Below are positions 498-5,962 of a stretch of 5,962 bases of DNA, piece after piece. Position numbers and translations under genes: made by a program. The notes beneath the pieces were generated by a model that searched no databases, was not told the origin of the DNA, and saw only the letters and a list, made by a program, of their open reading frames with translations. Numbering within the stretch: position 1 is the first letter of the stretch; the number at the start of each line of letters is the position of its first letter. This DNA comes from a virus (lineage: Duplodnaviria; Heunggongvirae; Uroviricota; Caudoviricetes): the IMG/VR virus record IMGVR_UViG_2579778952_000007, positions 1-5,962 of that record; one strand, given 5' to 3'.

Positions 498-708
498 AAA
501 ACGGAAACCTGATTACAGATTCCCAGATAAGGCAATGAGCTACCTGGCGTAGAGTGGGCTGATAAGTATGGGGAATGTTTTACGATGAATATTTAGACTA
601 AAGAGTTTGTAACGCTATGTAAGTGATTTTTTCTGGTTTAGATATTTGTATGTCCGGCCAAATTGAGGTGTGTTTAAATGTAATTGCACATTGATTGTAG
701 GGGGAATA

Positions 709-888
709 ATGAAAAACGCATTGCAGTTTTTGTTTGTTGCGTTCTGGTTGTTCGCATCATGTATGCCCATCATCTTCACAGCAAGGTATATGGAAAAAAT
801 TGATGTTTTGATATTAATGTTTGGACATATAAATGCCCTTTTTTTAGGGGTGTTCATGGCGGTCACGTGCATTGAATACTGGCGGTAA
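709..888 (+). CDS. Small hydrophobic membrane protein, 59 aa (the ORF-track frame extends to 670)
   Basis: AGGGGG at 699-704 sits 4 nt upstream of ATG 709. The product MKNALQFLFVAFWLFASCMPIIF... has two predicted transmembrane stretches. The locus is visibly AT-rich relative to its flanks. An antisense ORF (615..872) covers the same DNA, so strand choice is not certain. Confidence 0.4.
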   Translation: MKNALQFLFVAFWLFASCMPIIFTARYMEKIDVLILMFGHINALFLGVFMAVTCIEYWR

Positions 889-943
889 ATACAGCGAACG
901 CTATTGGTTTAGTTGGATATTTACTGTGCCGGACAAAAACGGT

Positions 944-971: not shown

Positions 972-1147
972 GACTGTGGGTGCTTGAGACTATCTGTCTC
1001 AGGCATGAACACCAAAAGGCAGATAGAGAAAAGCCCCAGTTAACATTACGCGTCCGGCAAGACGCTTAACATTAATCTGAGGCCATATCTATGCTCTACA
1101 CACGTAGGTTAGCCTCTTACGTGCCGAAAGGCAAGGAGAAGCAGGCT

Positions 1148-1303
1148 ATGAAGCAGCAAAAGGCGATGCTAATCGCCCTGATCGTCATCTGTTTAACCGT
1201 CATAGTGACGGCACTGGTAACGAGGAAAGACCTCTGCGAGGTACGAATCCGAACCGGCCAGACGGAGGTCGCTGTCTTCACAGCTTACGAACCTGAGGAG
1301 TAA
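1148..1303 (+). CDS. hokD: Hok/Gef family type I toxin, 51 aa, HokD(RelF)-like
   Basis: Translation MKQQKAMLIALIVICLTVIVTALVTRKDLCEVRIRTGQTEVAVFTAYEPEE has the Hok/Gef architecture: single N-terminal transmembrane helix, conserved LCE motif and periplasmic tail. It matches my recollection of E. coli HokD. AAGGAG at 1133-1138 lies 9 nt upstream of ATG 1148. The ORF track extends the frame to an in-frame ATG at 1091 (70 aa), which has its own GAGG. Confidence 0.88.
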   Translation: MKQQKAMLIALIVICLTVIVTALVTRKDLCEVRIRTGQTEVAVFTAYEPEE

Positions 1304-1373
1304 GAGACCGGGCGGGGGAGAAATCCCTCGCCGCCTCTGATGTGTCAGGCATCCTCAACGCACCCGCACTTAA

Positions 1374-1403
1374 CCCGCTTCGGCGGGTTTTTGTTTTTAT
1401 TTT
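1374..1403 (+). terminator. Rho-independent terminator of the hok transcript
   Basis: GC stem CCCGC (1374-1378) / GCGGG (1383-1387) with TTCG loop, followed by the T-run TTTTTGTTTTTATTTT (1388-1403). Confidence 0.7.
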
Positions 1404-3088: not shown

Positions 3089-3463
3089 ATGCTCATAGAT
3101 TTGGTTTTACCTTACCCGCCGACGGTGAACACTTACTGGCGACGCCGTGGCAGCACATATTTTATCTCGGAGGAGGGAAAGCGTTATCGCCGGGCTGTGG
3201 CGCTTATTGTTCGCCAGCAGCGGCTGAAATTAAGCCTGTCCGGAAGGCTGGCGATAAAGGTGATTGCAGAGCCACCGGATAAGCGTCGTCGCGACCTGGA
3301 CAATATCCTGAAAGCACCGCTGGATGCGCTGACGCATGCGGGAGTGTTAATGGACGATGAGCAGTTTGATGAAATCAATATCGTTCGTGGTCAGCCAGTA
3401 TCTGGTGGACGTATGGGGGTGAAGATTTACCCCATAATGCATGAAGAGCAGGTCAAAAAATGA
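3089..3463 (+). CDS. rusA: RusA-family crossover junction endodeoxyribonuclease (Holliday junction resolvase), 124 aa
   Basis: AGAGG at 3078-3082 is 6 nt before ATG 3089. The product carries the RusA signature: N-terminal LPYPPTVNTYWRRRG and the catalytic-region block KRRRDLDNILKAPLDALTHAGVLMDDEQ, comparable to [22 protein letters not shown] in E. coli RusA. The stop TGA 3461-3463 overlaps the next ATG (ATGA). Confidence 0.85.
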   Translation: MLIDLVLPYPPTVNTYWRRRGSTYFISEEGKRYRRAVALIVRQQRLKLSLSGRLAIKVIAEPPDKRRRDLDNILKAPLDALTHAGVLMDDEQFDEINIVRGQPVSGGRMGVKIYPIMHEEQVKK

Positions 3464-4281
3464 AACTGGAAGATTTACCGAAATACTACTCCCCAAAATC
3501 CCCTGGCCTGACCGATGCATCGGCCTCAACGTCAAAAGATGCGCTGAGTATCACTGATGTGATGGCCGCGCAGGGCATGACACAGAATCGGGCTGAGATG
3601 GGGTTTTCTGCGTTCCTGGGGAAAATGGGCATCAGTATGAATGACAGGGCGCGGGCAACAGAATTACTGGCAGATTATGCACTCAGTCGGTGCGATCGTG
3701 TGGCGGCGTTGAGAAAACTTCCGGCAGAAATAAAACCGGTAGTGATGCGCATTATGGCTTCGTATGCGTTTGAAGATTATGCCCGTAGCGCGGCGAGCAA
3801 AAAACAGTGCCCCTGCTGTCACGGAAAAAAATTTATTGAAAGCGAGGTTTTTACAAACAAGATCCAGTATCCGGATGGTAAGCCACCAGTGTGGGCAAAG
3901 TGCACAAAAGGCGTGTACCCGTCTTACTGGGAAGAATGGAAAAAAGTCAGGGAGGTGGTAAAAGTTGCCTGTCCGGAGTGTGGCGGAAAGGGTGAGGTTT
4001 CCACCGCCTGTAAGGATTGCCGTGGGCGTGGTGTCGCCATTCATCGTGAAGAGTCGGTAAAACGTGGTATGCCTGTTATCAGAGATTGCCAGCGTTGTGG
4101 TGGTCGTGGCTATGAAAGACTACCATCAACGGAGGCATTTAATGCCATACGCAAAGTGACGAGTGCTATCACGCTTGATACGTGGAAAAAATCAGTGAAA
4201 CGCTTTTACGATACGTTGGTGGTTCGGTTTGACATTGAAGAGGCATGGGCGGAGCGGCAGTTAAAGAGGGTAACGCGATAG
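3460..4281 (+). CDS. Late-gene antitermination protein Q family (long 82/Qin-type), 273 aa, with four CxxCxGxG zinc-finger repeats
   Basis: Positioned immediately after rusA and before a promoter-terminator pair, as Q is in lambdoid phages. The product contains CPCCHGKKF, CPECGGKGEV, CKDCRGRGV and CQRCGGRGY. Family assignment rests on synteny and recollection of long Q proteins, not on an alignment. Confidence 0.65.
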   Translation: MKLEDLPKYYSPKSPGLTDASASTSKDALSITDVMAAQGMTQNRAEMGFSAFLGKMGISMNDRARATELLADYALSRCDRVAALRKLPAEIKPVVMRIMASYAFEDYARSAASKKQCPCCHGKKFIESEVFTNKIQYPDGKPPVWAKCTKGVYPSYWEEWKKVREVVKVACPECGGKGEVSTACKDCRGRGVAIHREESVKRGMPVIRDCQRCGGRGYERLPSTEAFNAIRKVTSAITLDTWKKSVKRFYDTLVVRFDIEEAWAERQLKRVTR

Positions 4282-4286
4282 TGTTG

Positions 4287-4315
4287 TTGATTTTTCCCGA
4301 ATCTGTGGTAAATTT
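4287..4315 (+). promoter_or_regulatory. Candidate PR'-like late promoter: TTGATT, 16-bp spacer, TGgTAAATT
   Basis: -35 TTGATT at 4287-4292 and an extended -10, TG at 4306-4307 plus TAAATT at 4309-4314, immediately downstream of the Q stop. The terminator about 65 nt further on would give a short 6S-like leader RNA. Position-based inference only. Confidence 0.3.
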
Positions 4316-4361
4316 GCTCTAACGATGGGCGTTTTATGCCTGACGTTAGAAGGATTTTTAC

Positions 4362-4386
4362 AGCCCGCCATCGAGCGGGTTTTTTA
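4362..4386 (+). terminator. Rho-independent terminator (tR'-like) downstream of Q
   Basis: Stem CCCGC (4364-4368) / GCGGG (4375-4379) with a 6-nt loop, then T-run 4380-4385 (TTTTTT). Confidence 0.65.
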
Positions 4387-4520
4387 TATCTGGAAAGCGG
4401 TGCATAACGTTAAACGTGATGGCGATTGCGCAATGAGTTTCTCCTTCTCTGAAGTCTCTTGACTGCATGGAATCTCCTTTGTTATGTAAGGTGAGTTGAT
4501 GTTTTAAAATTGTTAGAGAG

Positions 4521-5240
4521 ATGGGTATGGATGACAGCACTCTGCTGAGGAACTCTTCACTTTTTATTGCTTATATGGGCTGTCTTGGATGGGGAAGCGC
4601 TTATTTCTATGGATGGGGGACTTCCTTTTATTATGGCTTTCCATGGTGGATCGTCGGGGCTGGCGTTGATGATGTGGCCCGAAGTTTGTTTTATGCTGTG
4701 AGCGTTATCGTTATATTCCTTACTGGATGGGGAGTAGGTATTGTTTTCTTTTTAGGCATAAAACAAAAAAACAATATACAGAATTTGAGTTTTATCAGAC
4801 TTTTTCTGGCAATATTGCTGCTTTTTATTCCGCCTGTTCTGGAGTTTTCGGTAATTCATCAGCACGTTGAGCCAGATGTGCTGTTTTTTTGTGTTATTGC
4901 TGCCTTTACAATTACGCTTTTTGTCAGGTCAGGAAGAAGACTTATTTCAGTAAAATGTTTTTCGGAAGTGTCTTTTATTCGCCATCACCGAATTGAGTTT
5001 ATTATGGCTGGATTCATGATTTATTTCTGGACATTCTCTCTTATTGCCGGTTGGTATAAACCTCAGTTTAAGAGGGAATATCAGATGATCCACTATGAGA
5101 ATACTTGGTATTACGTTCTTGCACGCTATGATGATCGTCTGGTTTTATCGAAATCGTACAGTAATGGGAGTTCTGCATTCGTTATACTTAATAGCGGGCA
5201 GATTGATGACTTTGAAATTAATGTAGTCAGAGTTCGTTAA
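4521..5240 (+). CDS. AT-rich multi-pass integral membrane protein of unknown function, 239 aa (moron-like cargo; alternative start 4527)
   Basis: Uninterrupted frame ATG 4521 to TAA 5238-5240, with a second in-frame ATG at 4527 lying 6 nt after GAGAG (4516-4520). About five hydrophobic helices (for example SLFYAVSVIVIFLTGWGVGIVFFLGI and FIRLFLAILLLFIPPVLEFSVI) plus a roughly 55-aa hydrophilic C-terminal tail. Composition is markedly more AT-rich than the flanking Q and tRNA genes. Candidate own promoter: TTGACT at 4459-4464 with a weak -10 near 4483-4488. Confidence 0.7.
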   Translation: MGMDDSTLLRNSSLFIAYMGCLGWGSAYFYGWGTSFYYGFPWWIVGAGVDDVARSLFYAVSVIVIFLTGWGVGIVFFLGIKQKNNIQNLSFIRLFLAILLLFIPPVLEFSVIHQHVEPDVLFFCVIAAFTITLFVRSGRRLISVKCFSEVSFIRHHRIEFIMAGFMIYFWTFSLIAGWYKPQFKREYQMIHYENTWYYVLARYDDRLVLSKSYSNGSSAFVILNSGQIDDFEINVVRVR

Positions 5241-5324
5241 TATTGCCTGAGTAACTTTCTGTTGACCGCTCAGATTCTTTTATCATGTGTAGGCCAATAT
5301 GCAGGATTTAATCAGGGTAGGGTA

Positions 5325-5353
5325 TTGCAGAGCTAAACTGGCATAAGTATTAT
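5325..5353 (+). promoter_or_regulatory. Candidate sigma70 promoter for the tRNA cluster: TTGCAG, 17-bp spacer, TATTAT
   Basis: -35 TTGCAG at 5325-5330 and -10 TATTAT at 5348-5353. The predicted start falls about 7 nt before the first tRNA at 5363. Confidence 0.45.
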
Positions 5354-5362
5354 TCCGCATAT

Positions 5363-5438
5363 GGCCCTTTAGCTCAGTGGTGAGAGCGAGCGACTCATAA
5401 TCGCCAGGTCGCTGGTTCAAATCCAGCAAGGGCCACCA
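5363..5438 (+). tRNA. ileZ: tRNA-Ile2 (anticodon CAT, ileX/ileZ-like lysidine tRNA); tRNA-Met not excluded
   Basis: 76 nt with full cloverleaf: acceptor GGCCCTT / AAGGGCC, D-arm TAGCTCAGTGGTGAGAGC, anticodon loop CTCATAA (CAT at 5396-5398), T-arm GGTTCAAATCC, discriminator A and encoded CCA. Closely resembles E. coli ileX as I recall it. Confidence 0.85.
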
Positions 5439-5445
5439 TCACATA

Positions 5446-5522
5446 CCGCCATTAGCTCATCGGCAGAGAGCGCCTGCTTTCGAAACTGGCTGTGTGAGGC
5501 TCGGGTCCCCGATGGCAATCCA
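5446..5522 (+). tRNA. Degenerate tRNA-like element, possibly a tRNA-Arg(TCG)-like pseudogene
   Basis: 77 nt foldable as a cloverleaf: intact D-arm GCTC / GAGC with 9-nt loop, anticodon loop TTTCGAA (TCG at 5480-5482), and a 3' end reading disc-T plus CCA (5519-5522). But acceptor pairs 1-72 and 2-71 are mismatched, the anticodon stem has 2 mismatches, the T-stem has 1, and the T-loop CTCGGGT departs from TTCRANT. Confidence 0.35.
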
Positions 5523-5535
5523 TTATCTGCATTAT

Positions 5536-5612
5536 GCGTTGTTAGCTCAGCCGGACAGAGCAATTGCCTTCTAAGCAATCGGTCACTGGTTCGAATCCAG
5601 TACAACGCGCCA
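5536..5612 (+). tRNA. argN: tRNA-Arg (anticodon TCT, argU/argN-like; reads AGA/AGG)
   Basis: 77 nt: acceptor GCGTTGT / ACAACGC, D-arm TAGCTCAGCCGGACAGAGC, anticodon stem ATTGC / GCAAT with loop CTTCTAA (TCT), T-arm GGTTCGAATCC, discriminator G and encoded CCA (5610-5612). Confidence 0.85.
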
Positions 5613-5624
5613 CGCTTATTTTTC

Positions 5625-5649
5625 CAGGCTCGCTTCGGCGGGCCTTTTT
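5625..5649 (+). terminator. Rho-independent terminator after the tRNA cluster
   Basis: Stem GGCTCGC (5627-5633) / GCGGGCC (5638-5644) with one G-U pair and a TTCG loop, followed by TTTTT (5645-5649). Confidence 0.6.
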
Positions 5650-5787
5650 CATATCCGCGCCACGCCCGGCGCACATCAAAAAACCACAGAGCCTTTCAGG
5701 GATGAGCTTACGGGATGGTCAGTGTGACTTTCTCTGTGGGCTGGTCAGCCCCGGGCGCAGGCTCACCCACTAAAAGGAAAAGTCACG

Positions 5788-5962
5788 ATGTTTGGTATTT
5801 TCAAAAAGAAAACCCGCAAGGCCATTACCGAAGTGAAGAAGATGGAGAACCGTGACGCAGTGGAGGCGACCGTCTGGGGCGCGTACTCCATTGCATACGC
5901 TGACGGCACCTGTGACGCGAAAGAAATCGCGGTACTGGAAAAAACCATTGCAGCACTTCCTG
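5788..5962 (+). CDS. 5' end of a cargo gene of unknown function, partial (runs off the window)
   Basis: ATG 5788 preceded by AAGGA (5774-5778) at 9-nt spacing; the frame stays open to the window end (58 codons). Translation begins MFGIFKKKTRKAITEVKKMENRDAVEATVWGAYSIAYADGTCDAKEIAVLEKTIAAL. It occupies the position directly after the tRNAs that stx genes occupy in Stx phages, but it is not a Shiga-toxin A subunit (no signal peptide, different sequence). Confidence 0.55.
   Translation, partial: MFGIFKKKTRKAITEVKKMENRDAVEATVWGAYSIAYADGTCDAKEIAVLEKTIAALP

What the first reader, a model, noticed from the sequence alone, without database searches (positions are those of the whole stretch)
4282..5240. 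AT-rich 239-aa multi-pass membrane protein inserted between Q and the phage tRNA cluster
The gene at 4521..5240 follows the Q antiterminator and a PR'-like promoter/terminator, so Q-modified polymerase would read through into it as the first late-transcribed gene; it may also have its own TTGACT promoter. It is far more AT-rich than the flanking phage genes and encodes about five transmembrane helices plus a small soluble C-terminal domain, with no motif I recognise. This position in lambdoid phages is a hotspot for lysogenic-conversion and defence cargo. A single membrane protein here is a plausible superinfection-exclusion or abortive-infection effector, or another uncharacterised conversion factor.
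Basis: partly seen in the sequence, partly recalled or inferred. Interest (0 to 1): 0.78.

Follow-up and report, generated by a model that had tools for sequence, protein, structure and literature searches.

The report
Mobile membrane-protein gene behind phage Q
The gene is real: a self-contained AT-rich cassette inserted just after the late terminator of an E. coli lambda-like prophage, encoding a five-helix inner-membrane protein of a catalogued but uncharacterised family (Pfam TfpB / "STM1630 family"), with no detectable link to any known anti-phage system.

Summary
An ORF at 4521-5240 (the conserved start is 4527, giving 237 aa) follows Q, a PR'-like promoter and the tR' terminator. It has 39% GC against 50-55% in the flanking genes. 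It encodes five TM helices and a roughly 55-aa C-terminal beta domain.

The gene is not an orphan. It belongs to Pfam PF27470 "TfpB", which PGAP calls "STM1630 family", and to PHROG 1521 (function unknown).

It is a presence/absence cassette of about 930 bp inserted directly after tR'. The same Q/PR'/tR' runs straight into tRNA-Ile in 1228 complete E. coli genomes and into the cassette in 97. A TTGAC-N18-TGnTATGTA promoter-like element travels with the gene, even onto a plasmid.

Family members sit behind at least four Q alleles of different length. These include phage 434 and a Stx2a prophage, where the gene lies between Q and stx2. Members also occur on Shigella pINV, beside eltAB on an ETEC plasmid, beside sseJ in Salmonella, and as single genes in Neisseria and Pasteurellaceae.

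dN/dS is 0.11-0.19. PADLOC, PDB and BFVD give no meaningful hit, and there is no relation to P22 SieA. The defence reading is untested and unsupported. The only experimental hints, from Salmonella STM1630, point to a host-associated role. This is an ordinary moron whose product has no known function.

The parts
3460..4281 (+). Q antiterminator gene (273 aa) that precedes the cassette
   Evidence: PF03589 E=2e-50; phrog_127 and phrog_25523 anti-termination protein Q-like; annotated as antitermination protein in NZ_CM128600
4287..4314 (+). PR'-like late promoter: TTGATT, 16 nt, TGgTAAATT (extended -10)
   Evidence: Read from the sequence. Conserved in L016, which has the same Q type, and about 90% identical in Stx2a phage Stx2_EH1910 and phage Evi. 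Function is inferred from position and homology.
4362..4387 (+). tR'-like intrinsic terminator (7-bp GC-rich stem, 6-nt loop, T-run)
   Evidence: Terminator scan; conserved with compensating changes in L016, L002 and phage 434
4389..5320 (+). Inserted cassette of about 930 bp (moron); absent from otherwise homologous prophages
   Evidence: In L016 the same Q/PR'/tR' is followed about 30 nt later by tRNA-Ile. Homology breaks right after the T-run and resumes at TATTGC(A/G)GA, about 40 nt before the tRNA. Junction counts are 1228 empty and 97 occupied. The ends are accurate to about +/-10 nt.
4459..4488 (+). Cassette's own sigma-70-like promoter: TTGACT (4459-4464), 18 nt, TATGTA (4483-4488), preceded by TG at 4480-4481
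   Evidence: Best-conserved upstream block in 9 E. coli/Escherichia copies. On plasmid pUMNK88_Ent similarity starts at about the -35. The Salmonella orthologue has a promoter whose -10 SNPs in ST313 accompany loss of expression. The exact -10 register is uncertain and no TSS is mapped here.
4527..5240 (+).
   Evidence: PF27470 on cluster-mates; phrog_1521 E=1.4e-87; dN/dS 0.11-0.19
4527..4766 (+). Most conserved part (residues 1-80): TM1, the Gly/aromatic belt SAYFYGWG..YYGFPWW, the first periplasmic loop, and TM2 starting with the ARSL motif
   Evidence: Alignments A1-A3. pN is 0.03-0.13 here against 0.06-0.42 in the middle third for E. coli-clade alleles; the Salmonella copy gives 0.23 against 0.44. 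pLDDT is 86-90.
5070..5237 (+). C-terminal five-strand beta domain (residues ~182-237), predicted periplasmic
   Evidence: AF2 strands 184-190, 193-201, 204-208, 219-222 and 231-235. The N-in/C-out topology is inferred from the positive-inside rule: loops 79-91 (+3) and 134-157 (+4 net) are cytoplasmic (sequence).
5363..5438 (+). Phage tRNA (anticodon CAT; called Met by ARAGORN, tRNA-Ile by PGAP) immediately downstream of the cassette
5536..5612 (+). Phage tRNA-Arg (TCT)
5626..5655 (+). First clear intrinsic terminator downstream of the cassette (after the tRNAs)
   Evidence: Terminator scan. No convincing terminator lies between the stop codon and the tRNAs (fold z = -0.3).

Best explanation
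What it is (shown). It is a roughly 930-bp AT-rich moron inserted immediately downstream of the tR' terminator of an E. coli lambdoid prophage. It carries a single gene for a 237-aa protein of the TfpB/STM1630 family (Pfam PF27470, PHROG 1521).

How it is expressed (inferred). There are two routes. The first is its own sigma-70-type promoter, which moves with the gene. The cassette is AT-rich, and its Salmonella orthologue is H-NS-bound and switched on in host-like conditions, so this promoter is probably H-NS-silenced and condition-dependent. The second is Q-antiterminated late transcription from PR' after induction. No terminator separates the gene from the tRNAs, so cassette transcripts may continue into them.

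What the protein does (inferred, low confidence). It is a five-helix inner-membrane protein with its N-terminus inside and its C-terminus outside. Its constrained surface faces the periplasm: the Gly/aromatic belt at the outer end of TM1, the first loop, the ARSL motif and the small C-terminal beta domain. TM3, TM4 and the cytoplasmic loops drift freely. No conserved His, Asp or Glu constellation suggests catalysis. It therefore most likely acts stoichiometrically, binding a conserved envelope component at the outer face of the inner membrane.

I read it as a lysogenic-conversion or accessory fitness factor that changes an envelope property useful in the animal host. I do not read it as a member of a recognised anti-phage system.
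For: Identity.

Cassette nature: the empty site in L016 with the same Q/PR'/tR'; junction counts of 1228 against 97; GC of 39% against 50-55%.

Own promoter: conservation of TTGAC-N18-TGnTATG, with similarity on pUMNK88_Ent starting at about the -35. Salmonella STM1630 has its own promoter, and two ST313 SNPs in its -10 accompany loss of expression.

The gene is real and constrained: dN/dS is 0.11-0.19, and the first 80 residues are the most constrained.

Architecture.

Non-enzymatic reading: the residues nearly invariant across 34 diverse members are A, Y, W, G, R, S, L, P and F only.

Host-associated role. STM1630 is H-NS-bound. It is expressed in SPI-2-inducing medium and in macrophages. 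STM mutants were reported attenuated in calves and chicks. Deletion in strain 4/74 changed intramacrophage replication. It is co-regulated with the SPI-2 regulon.

Intact copies are kept on Shigella/EIEC pINV: 106 Shigella plasmids match, and 141 of 156 matching plasmids cover at least 80% of the protein. Other copies lie beside eltAB, beside sseJ, and between Q and stx2AB.

Not defence-like.
Against: No direct functional test exists for any E. coli member.

The Salmonella phenotypes are weak or inconsistent. There was no LB growth defect and no effect in D23580. A hypermotility phenotype was not among those verified on re-test.

Association with virulence loci may only reflect that these are all H-NS-silenced, horizontally acquired AT-rich regions in heavily sequenced pathogens.

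In Neisseria and Pasteurellaceae the gene sits alone among housekeeping genes with no conserved neighbour, which gives no functional clue.

The promoter is inferred from consensus and conservation only. Its -10 hexamer is poor (TATGTA or TATGAG).

The topology is predicted, not measured.
Confidence: 0.4

Rival explanations
1. Superinfection exclusion. The prophage-expressed inner-membrane protein blocks DNA entry of incoming phages at the periplasmic face of the inner membrane. It could do so by occupying or altering a conserved host inner-membrane component needed for injection, in the manner of HK97 gp15, DicB or P22 SieA.
For: The format is typical of Sie genes: a small non-enzymatic inner-membrane protein, a moron with its own promoter, AT-rich, and variably present in otherwise identical prophages. 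The conserved surface is periplasmic. Several diverged alleles occur per genome, with a median of 2 places and up to 4. The gene is dispensable for lytic growth, because it lies in the phage 434 region that the record annotates as non-homologous to 434B.
Against: There is no similarity to any PADLOC model beyond a spurious AbiC hit in 2 of 34 members. There is none to P22 SieA (probability 1.6%). PHROG hits are only to families of unknown function. The family is stably kept in non-phage settings: the Salmonella chromosome from arizonae to enterica, pINV, and Neisseria/Pasteurellaceae chromosomes. The periplasmic parts are the most conserved, not diversifying as expected if they tracked phage proteins. 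No experiment exists.
Confidence: 0.2
2. Orphan immunity protein. The membrane protein neutralises a membrane-targeting toxin delivered by competitors, such as a pore-forming bacteriocin or a CDI or T6SS effector. It spreads as a single gene on mobile elements.
For: Polytopic inner-membrane proteins without catalytic motifs are the usual format of immunity proteins to pore formers (established knowledge). The distribution is a single-gene islet in Enterobacterales, Pasteurellaceae and Neisseria. The window's downstream neighbours are a TerB-family protein and a DUF3927 protein, a type labelled TciB in phage 434.
Against: No toxin gene or toxin fragment lies next to any copy inspected. At 237 aa with five TM helices and a beta domain it is larger than classical colicin immunity proteins. 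There is no sequence or fold match.
Confidence: 0.1
3. Type IV pilus accessory protein, as the family name TfpB suggests. It would modulate pilin handling at the inner membrane, like the TfpY/FimB-like pilin accessory proteins.
For: Pfam labels the family TfpB, and one E. coli member was auto-named 'protein tfpB'. From memory, not checked here: tfpB was named as an ORF in the Moraxella bovis pilin inversion region. The size (about 240 aa) and the plan of N-terminal TM helices plus a periplasmic C-terminal beta domain resemble TfpY-like proteins. Distant members are in pilus-bearing Neisseria and Pasteurellaceae.
Against: No pilin or pilus gene lies next to any of the copies examined. TfpY-like proteins have three TM helices and a larger two-sheet periplasmic domain, not five TM helices and about 55 residues. 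An exhaustive profile search found only 66 cluster representatives among 1.84 billion, so the widespread FimB/TfpY family is evidently not within reach.
Confidence: 0.07
4. Abortive-infection or lysis-related membrane effector: a toxic pore, holin, antiholin or lysis-timing factor made from the late transcript.
For: It is the first gene of the Q-dependent late transcript and lies upstream of the lysis cassette. The top, non-significant Foldseek hits are MscS-type channels.
Against: The prophage has its own two holins and an endolysin further downstream, separated from this gene by tRNAs, TerB and DUF3927. The gene is absent from most prophages with the same Q/PR' and from the 434B version of this region. 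It has its own promoter and is expressed in non-phage contexts without reported toxicity, and the Salmonella deletion has no growth effect. At 237 aa with five TM helices it is unlike holins. The AbiC hit is spurious.
Confidence: 0.04

Closest known systems
Pfam PF27470 'TfpB' = PGAP 'STM1630 family protein' = PHROG 1521 (all of unknown function)
   Same: Full-length homology. The exact protein sits in a 90% cluster whose representative carries PF27470. phrog_1521 matches residues 19-239 of the 239-aa ORF at E=1.4e-87. An 89.5%-identical (DNA) E. coli copy is annotated as STM1630 family.
   Different: Nothing structural. The window copy is one allele among many, 45-89% identical to other enterobacterial members. 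The family has no assigned function.
Phage 434 gene CPT_434_68 'putative membrane protein' (OL657226) and the EDL933 prophage homologue WP_001302581
   Same: 58% identical protein. The position is the same: directly after Q, PR' and a terminator, as the first late gene. The same TTGAC...TGTTATG upstream element is present.
   Different: The Q type differs (Q82-like, 207-229 aa) and the downstream neighbours differ (DUF3927/TciB, SASA esterase). The 434 and EDL933 annotations use an upstream start codon, giving 247 aa.
Salmonella Typhimurium STM1630 (SL1344_1560)
   Same: Family member: the arizonae orthologue is 50% identical. It is AT-rich, has its own promoter and lies beside horizontally acquired virulence genes.
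   Different: It is chromosomal and fixed in Salmonella between steB and sseJ, not in a prophage. It is the only member with experimental data: H-NS-bound, induced by SPI-2 conditions and in macrophages, with colonisation phenotypes.
Classical phage morons (for example lambda bor/lom, HK97 gp15, stx in the Q-S interval)
   Same: Extra DNA relative to sibling phages, deviant base composition, its own promoter, and a location in the Q-to-lysis cargo hotspot.
   Different: No cassette-borne terminator was detected in this copy. Another allele, L002, does carry a tR'-like terminator after the gene. The product is unrelated to Bor, Lom or gp15.
P22 SieA superinfection-exclusion protein
   Same: Prophage-expressed polytopic inner-membrane protein without enzymatic motifs.
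   Different: SieA is 162-164 aa with three TM helices and a conserved cytoplasmic FxRYPxEAxxFNK motif. The profile comparison gives probability 1.6%.
TfpY/FimB-like type IV pilin accessory proteins
   Same: About 235-245 aa, N-terminal TM helices and a periplasmic C-terminal beta-containing domain; function poorly defined.
   Different: They have three TM helices and a larger two-sheet domain against five TM helices and a roughly 55-aa domain. They are always linked to pilin genes, which this family is not. Sequence relatedness was not tested.

Membership tests
Pfam PF27470 TfpB / PGAP STM1630 family | Significant match to the family profile over the full length | tested here: met
   All 99 homologues, including 97-98% identical ones, carry precomputed PF27470. 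The exact window protein is a member of the P0003 cluster. The label TfpB appears. The local Pfam copy lacks the model, so the match is indirect, through cluster-mates.
PHROG 1521 | HMM match across the profile | tested here: met
   E=1.4e-87, protein residues 19-239 against profile positions 1-221 of 222
Phage moron | Present in some and absent from other, otherwise homologous, phage genomes at the same site | tested here: met
   L016 has the same Q/PR'/tR' joined to tRNA-Ile; 1228 empty and 97 occupied junctions
Phage moron | Base composition distinct from neighbours | tested here: met
   39.0% GC against 50-55%
Phage moron | Own promoter (independent transcription in the lysogen) | tested here: inconclusive
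   The TTGAC-N18-TGnTATGTA element is conserved with the gene across contexts, and the orthologue has a mapped promoter. No transcript data exist for this locus, and the -10 is weak.
Phage moron | Own terminator | tested here: not met
   No terminator between 5241 and 5362. The first one is at 5626-5645, after the tRNAs. Allele L002 does have one.
Known anti-phage defence systems (PADLOC-DB v2) | Significant match to a defence-protein model | tested here: not met
   Only AbiC at E=0.0038, 14.8 bits, over TM residues 56-114 of the 239-aa ORF; found in 2 of 34 family members
P22 SieA-type superinfection exclusion | Homology to SieA types A-C; three or four TM helices; cytoplasmic FxRYPxEAxxFNK motif | tested here: not met
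   hhalign probability 1.6%; five TM helices and no such motif
Superinfection exclusion (functional class) | Reduces infection by blocking adsorption or DNA entry when expressed from the prophage | not testable with these tools
   Needs plating and DNA-entry assays
Holin / lysis cassette | Small (<~150 aa) protein with 1-4 TM helices, adjacent to the endolysin and required for lysis | tested here: not met
   237 aa with five TM helices. Two holins and an M15 endolysin lie about 1.2 kb further downstream. The gene is absent from most sibling prophages.
TfpY/FimB-like pilin accessory proteins | Three TM helices, a large periplasmic two-sheet domain, and a gene adjacent to the major pilin gene | tested here: not met
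   Five TM helices and a roughly 55-aa domain. No pilin gene next to any copy. The definition is taken from PMC11841053. Direct sequence comparison was not done.

The most novel reading that the evidence does not exclude
The TfpB/STM1630 family would be a previously unrecognised, widely mobile single-gene envelope module. Its conserved periplasm-facing surface would engage a conserved inner-membrane or periplasmic host component and so change what can cross the envelope. That could mean excluding incoming phage DNA or membrane-acting toxins, or altering surface behaviour in the animal host. This would explain why intact copies are kept behind Q in about a fifth of complete E. coli genomes, in phage 434, between Q and stx2 in an Stx2a prophage, on Shigella pINV plasmids and next to sseJ in Salmonella.
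Probability: 0.2. Interest if true: 0.65.

Novelty: new member of a known kind. Interest (0 to 1): 0.35.

Why it matters
The gene itself is an ordinary moron, and its family is already catalogued. Interest lies in how common and well preserved that uncharacterised family is.

- It is detectable by DNA similarity in 1197 of 5426 complete E. coli genomes.
- It is present in the classical phage 434.
- Intact copies are widespread on Shigella/EIEC invasion plasmids.
- It is present across Salmonella.
- It is often the first gene that Q-modified polymerase transcribes.

In at least one Stx2a prophage the cassette, with its own promoter and no terminator, sits between PR'/tR' and the tRNA-stx2AB unit. 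It could therefore influence basal or induced toxin transcription. Assigning a function would annotate thousands of 'hypothetical protein' entries in pathogens. Nothing found here shows that the function is new in kind.

Tried and rejected
- Local Pfam, NCBIfam and PADLOC scans of the protein and of 34 family members gave nothing, or a spurious AbiC hit.
- PDB sequence-profile search: best hit was the MCR-1 TM domain at E=1.
- The first AF2 model, from a shallow alignment, was poor (pLDDT 61.6). The second, with Neisseria and Pasteurellaceae homologues added, was usable (pLDDT 79.9).
- Profile comparison with P22 SieA was negative.
- Gene-neighbourhood analysis in 11 distant contexts found no conserved neighbour. 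A Hin-type invertase lies nearby in Klebsiella and Mangrovibacter copies only.
- Rfam found nothing in 4282-4520.
- No cassette terminator: the fold of 5236-5345 is no better than shuffles.
- The terminator-like hairpin inside the CDS (4860-4883) is allele-specific, so probably chance.
- Literature searches for PF27470, the phage 434/434B genome and tfpB in Moraxella found nothing usable.
- The STM1630 hypermotility phenotype was not among the seven phenotypes verified on re-test.
- The genome-collection scan with the wide alignment failed for lack of a conserved stretch. The narrower one returned only six loci.
Full report
**1. The observation**

The window is the early-right to late junction of an E. 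coli lambdoid prophage. It is 99.9% identical over its full length to a prophage integrated next to rspB in strain E400634.

The gene order is as follows:
- an unannotated region
- the hok/sok module
- a DUF968 gene
- RusA
- a 273-aa Q antiterminator (3460-4281; PF03589, E=2e-50)
- the target ORF
- two tRNAs
- TerB and DUF3927 genes, two holins and an M15 endolysin, all beyond or at the edge of the window

The ORF at 4521-5240 is real. At 39% GC, 239 stop-free codons have a chance probability of about 1e-7. The family alignment makes the Met at 4527 invariant, and PGAP starts the CDS there. The protein is therefore 237 aa.

The GC content is 39.0% for the gene. It is 50.2% for Q, 51.7% for RusA and 55.3% for DUF968.

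Between Q and the ORF there are two elements. One is a PR'-like promoter: TTGATT, 16 nt, TGgTAAATT, at 4287-4314, read. The other is a strong terminator, a hairpin at 4362-4381 plus a T-run. Both are conserved in sibling prophages and in an Stx2a phage.

Hydropathy analysis and an AlphaFold2 model (pLDDT 79.9, pTM 0.70) agree on the architecture. There are five TM helices (4-36, 47-78, 89-111, 116-138, 155-181) and a five-strand C-terminal domain (184-235).

**2. What it is**

The protein is not an orphan.
- It matches PHROG 1521, of unknown function, at E=1.4e-87.
- Every homologue in the 5.8-billion-protein collection carries the precomputed Pfam family PF27470. That family is labelled TfpB.
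- RefSeq names some copies 'STM1630 family protein'.
- The local Pfam and NCBIfam copies lack these models.

The family is small. A profile search of 1.84 billion cluster representatives found 66 hits. Members occur in several groups:
- Enterobacterales: Escherichia, Shigella, Salmonella, Citrobacter, Klebsiella, Enterobacter, Cronobacter, Yersinia and Mangrovibacter
- Neisseria and Pasteurellaceae, at 20-30% identity
- Haemophilus ducreyi

The gene is under purifying selection, with dN/dS of 0.11-0.19.

**3. It is a cassette**

Strain 266917_2 has the same DUF968-RusA-Q block and the same PR'/tR'. There, tRNA-Ile follows about 30 nt after the terminator. Aligning the two defines an insertion from about 4389, immediately after the T-run, to about 5320.

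In 5426 complete E. coli genomes the empty junction is found in 1228 and the occupied junction in 97.

The same gene family sits directly behind at least four Q alleles of different length:
- the 273-aa Q of the window
- a 221-aa Q
- a 207-aa Q in an EDL933 prophage
- the 229-aa Q82-like Q of phage 434

In the 434 record the gene lies inside the stretch annotated as non-homologous to 434B. It is therefore dispensable for phage growth.

In a flour isolate of serotype O8:H28, an allele with dN 0.004 and dS 0.026 relative to the window lies between Q and the tRNA-stx2AB unit of an Stx2a prophage.

By DNA similarity the family is detectable in 1197 of 5426 genomes. Genomes that have it hold a median of two places.

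**4. Its own promoter**

Upstream regions from nine Escherichia copies share little except one block: CTCTTGAC(T/G)...TTTGTTATG. This corresponds to TTGACT at 4459-4464 and TG-n-TATGTA at 4480-4488. On the ETEC plasmid pUMNK88_Ent, similarity to the window starts at about the -35.

The Salmonella orthologue has its own promoter. Two SNPs in its -10 in the ST313 lineage accompany loss of expression.

No terminator follows the gene in this allele. Another allele carries a second tR'-like terminator after the gene.

Two transcription routes therefore look likely:
- from the cassette promoter in the lysogen, possibly running on into the tRNAs
- from PR' with Q after induction

This is inferred. 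No transcript data exist for this locus.

**5. Life outside phages**

| Context | Evidence |
|---|---|
| Divergent from eltAB on a porcine ETEC plasmid | |
| Among IS elements near spa40 on Shigella/EIEC pINV (106 Shigella plasmids match; 141 of 156 matching plasmids cover at least 80% of the protein) | |
| Pseudogene beside a tRNA-Arg near the iro genes in E. coli 536 | |
| Divergent from sseJ in Salmonella arizonae (STM1630 lies between steB and sseJ in Typhimurium) | |
| Near the integrase end of a Klebsiella prophage, and next to a Hin-type invertase in Mangrovibacter | |
| Isolated gene between unrelated housekeeping genes in Neisseria, Avibacterium, Pasteurella, Gallibacterium and H. ducreyi | |

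No neighbour is conserved, so context gives no function.

**6. What the protein may do**

Across 34 diverse members the nearly invariant residues are A15, A25, Y26, Y28, W30, G37, W40, A51-R52-S53-L54, R91, P102, Y166, F167, G175, Y195 and F218. No acidic or histidine constellation suggests catalysis.

By the positive-inside rule, loops 79-91 and 134-157 are cytoplasmic. That puts the N-terminus inside. It puts the first loop, the start of TM2 and the C-terminal domain in the periplasm. This is an inference from the sequence.

The first 80 residues are the most constrained part, with pN of 0.03-0.13 for E. coli-clade alleles. TM3, TM4 and the cytoplasmic loop are the least constrained, with pN up to 0.42. 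This pattern fits a stoichiometric binder of a conserved envelope component. It does not fit a protein that tracks fast-evolving phage parts.

The fold has no analogue in the libraries searched:
- Foldseek against PDB: best E=0.8
- BFVD: best E=0.08
- PDB profile search: best E=1

**7. Defence?**

PADLOC returns only AbiC at E=0.0038 over a TM stretch, and in only 2 of 34 members. P22 SieA is unrelated, with hhalign probability 1.6%. SieA is also built differently, with 162-164 aa and three TM helices.

The superinfection-exclusion idea remains compatible with the format of the gene. It has no positive evidence.

**8. Experimental hints**

All of these come from Salmonella STM1630, about 50% identical to the window protein.
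- It is H-NS-bound and expressed in SPI-2-inducing medium and in macrophages.
- It is silent in ST313, where two SNPs disrupt the promoter -10.
- It is not needed for growth in LB.
- Signature-tagged mutants were reported attenuated in calves and chicks.
- Deletion in strain 4/74 increased intramacrophage replication.
- It clusters with SPI-2-co-regulated genes.
- A hypermotility phenotype was not among those verified on re-test.

These hints lean towards a host-associated accessory role, but they are weak.

**9. The name TfpB**

The name TfpB invites a type IV pilus reading. From memory, unchecked, tfpB was an ORF in the Moraxella bovis pilin inversion region. The characterised pilin accessory proteins (TfpY/FimB-like) have three TM helices, a larger periplasmic domain and obligate linkage to pilin genes. 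None of these holds here.

**10. Verdict**

- The structural and regulatory parts of the interpretation are supported.
- The defence part is unsupported and untested.
- The thing is a typical moron carrying a member of an already catalogued family of unknown function.
- My preferred reading is a lysogenic-conversion envelope factor acting at the periplasmic face of the inner membrane (confidence 0.4).
- Superinfection exclusion is the main rival (0.2).

Noticed in passing
L015 (NZ_CP076704, O8:H28) 4291-7776: An allele nearly identical to the window's (dN 0.004, dS 0.026) lies between Q/PR'/tR' and the tRNA-stx2A-stx2B unit of an Stx2a prophage. A promoter-bearing cassette with no terminator at that spot could affect stx2 transcription.
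   Followed up: partly
window 5446-5517: The 97-nt gap between the two tRNAs holds a tRNA-like sequence (GCCATTAGCTCATCGG...CCCCGATGGCA) that ARAGORN and Rfam do not call. It is probably a decayed third tRNA, since sibling prophages carry Ile-Arg-Arg or Ile-Lys-Thr-Gly arrays.
   Followed up: no
window 5363-5438: ARAGORN calls this tRNA Met (anticodon CAT), but RefSeq annotates it as tRNA-Ile, presumably read as a lysidine-modified tRNA-Ile2.
   Followed up: no
window 978-1303: A complete hok/sok type I toxin-antitoxin module: Rfam sok at E=9.5e-27 (978-1153) and HokD (Hok/gef, E=2.9e-23).
   Followed up: partly
window 1312-1393: A weak Rfam match to the Hfq-binding sRNA isrK (25 bits, gathering score 50, E=0.022) just after hokD. 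It is below threshold.
   Followed up: no
window 600-900 (ORF 670-888, +): A second AT-rich patch (37-39% GC) with a 72-aa hydrophobic ORF, in a stretch (about 498-1147) where RefSeq annotates nothing. No Pfam hit.
   Followed up: no
window 5788-5962 and beyond (L001 17788-18362): Downstream of the tRNAs lie a TerB-family gene and a DUF3927 gene. The DUF3927 type is labelled TciB in the phage 434 record and also follows the family gene in 434 and EDL933. It is another cargo pair in the Q-to-lysis interval.
   Followed up: no
window 4860-4893: A terminator-like hairpin (9 pairs, -12.2 kcal/mol) plus T7 inside the CDS. It is weakened or absent in other alleles, so it is probably chance.
   Followed up: yes
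L002 5735-5770: In another prophage the family gene is followed by a second copy of the tR'-type terminator (CCCGCCATTGAGCGGGTTTTTT). This suggests the cassette moved by recombination between terminator copies.
   Followed up: no
L004 (pUMNK88_Ent) 3982-6709: On a porcine ETEC plasmid the family gene is the divergent neighbour of the heat-labile toxin genes eltAB, about 870 bp away.
   Followed up: no
L022 6001-7348; L018 6001-11107: In Mangrovibacter the most divergent family members sit right beside a Hin-type serine invertase. In a Klebsiella prophage they sit a few genes from one (umuDC and a reverse transcriptase lie between), at the end carrying a tail-fibre-like SASA gene.
   Followed up: no
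window 3460-4281: This Q protein carries a DnaJ-type CXXCXGXG zinc-finger region (PF00684, E=4e-7, below the gathering score) in addition to the Q antiterminator domain.
   Followed up: no
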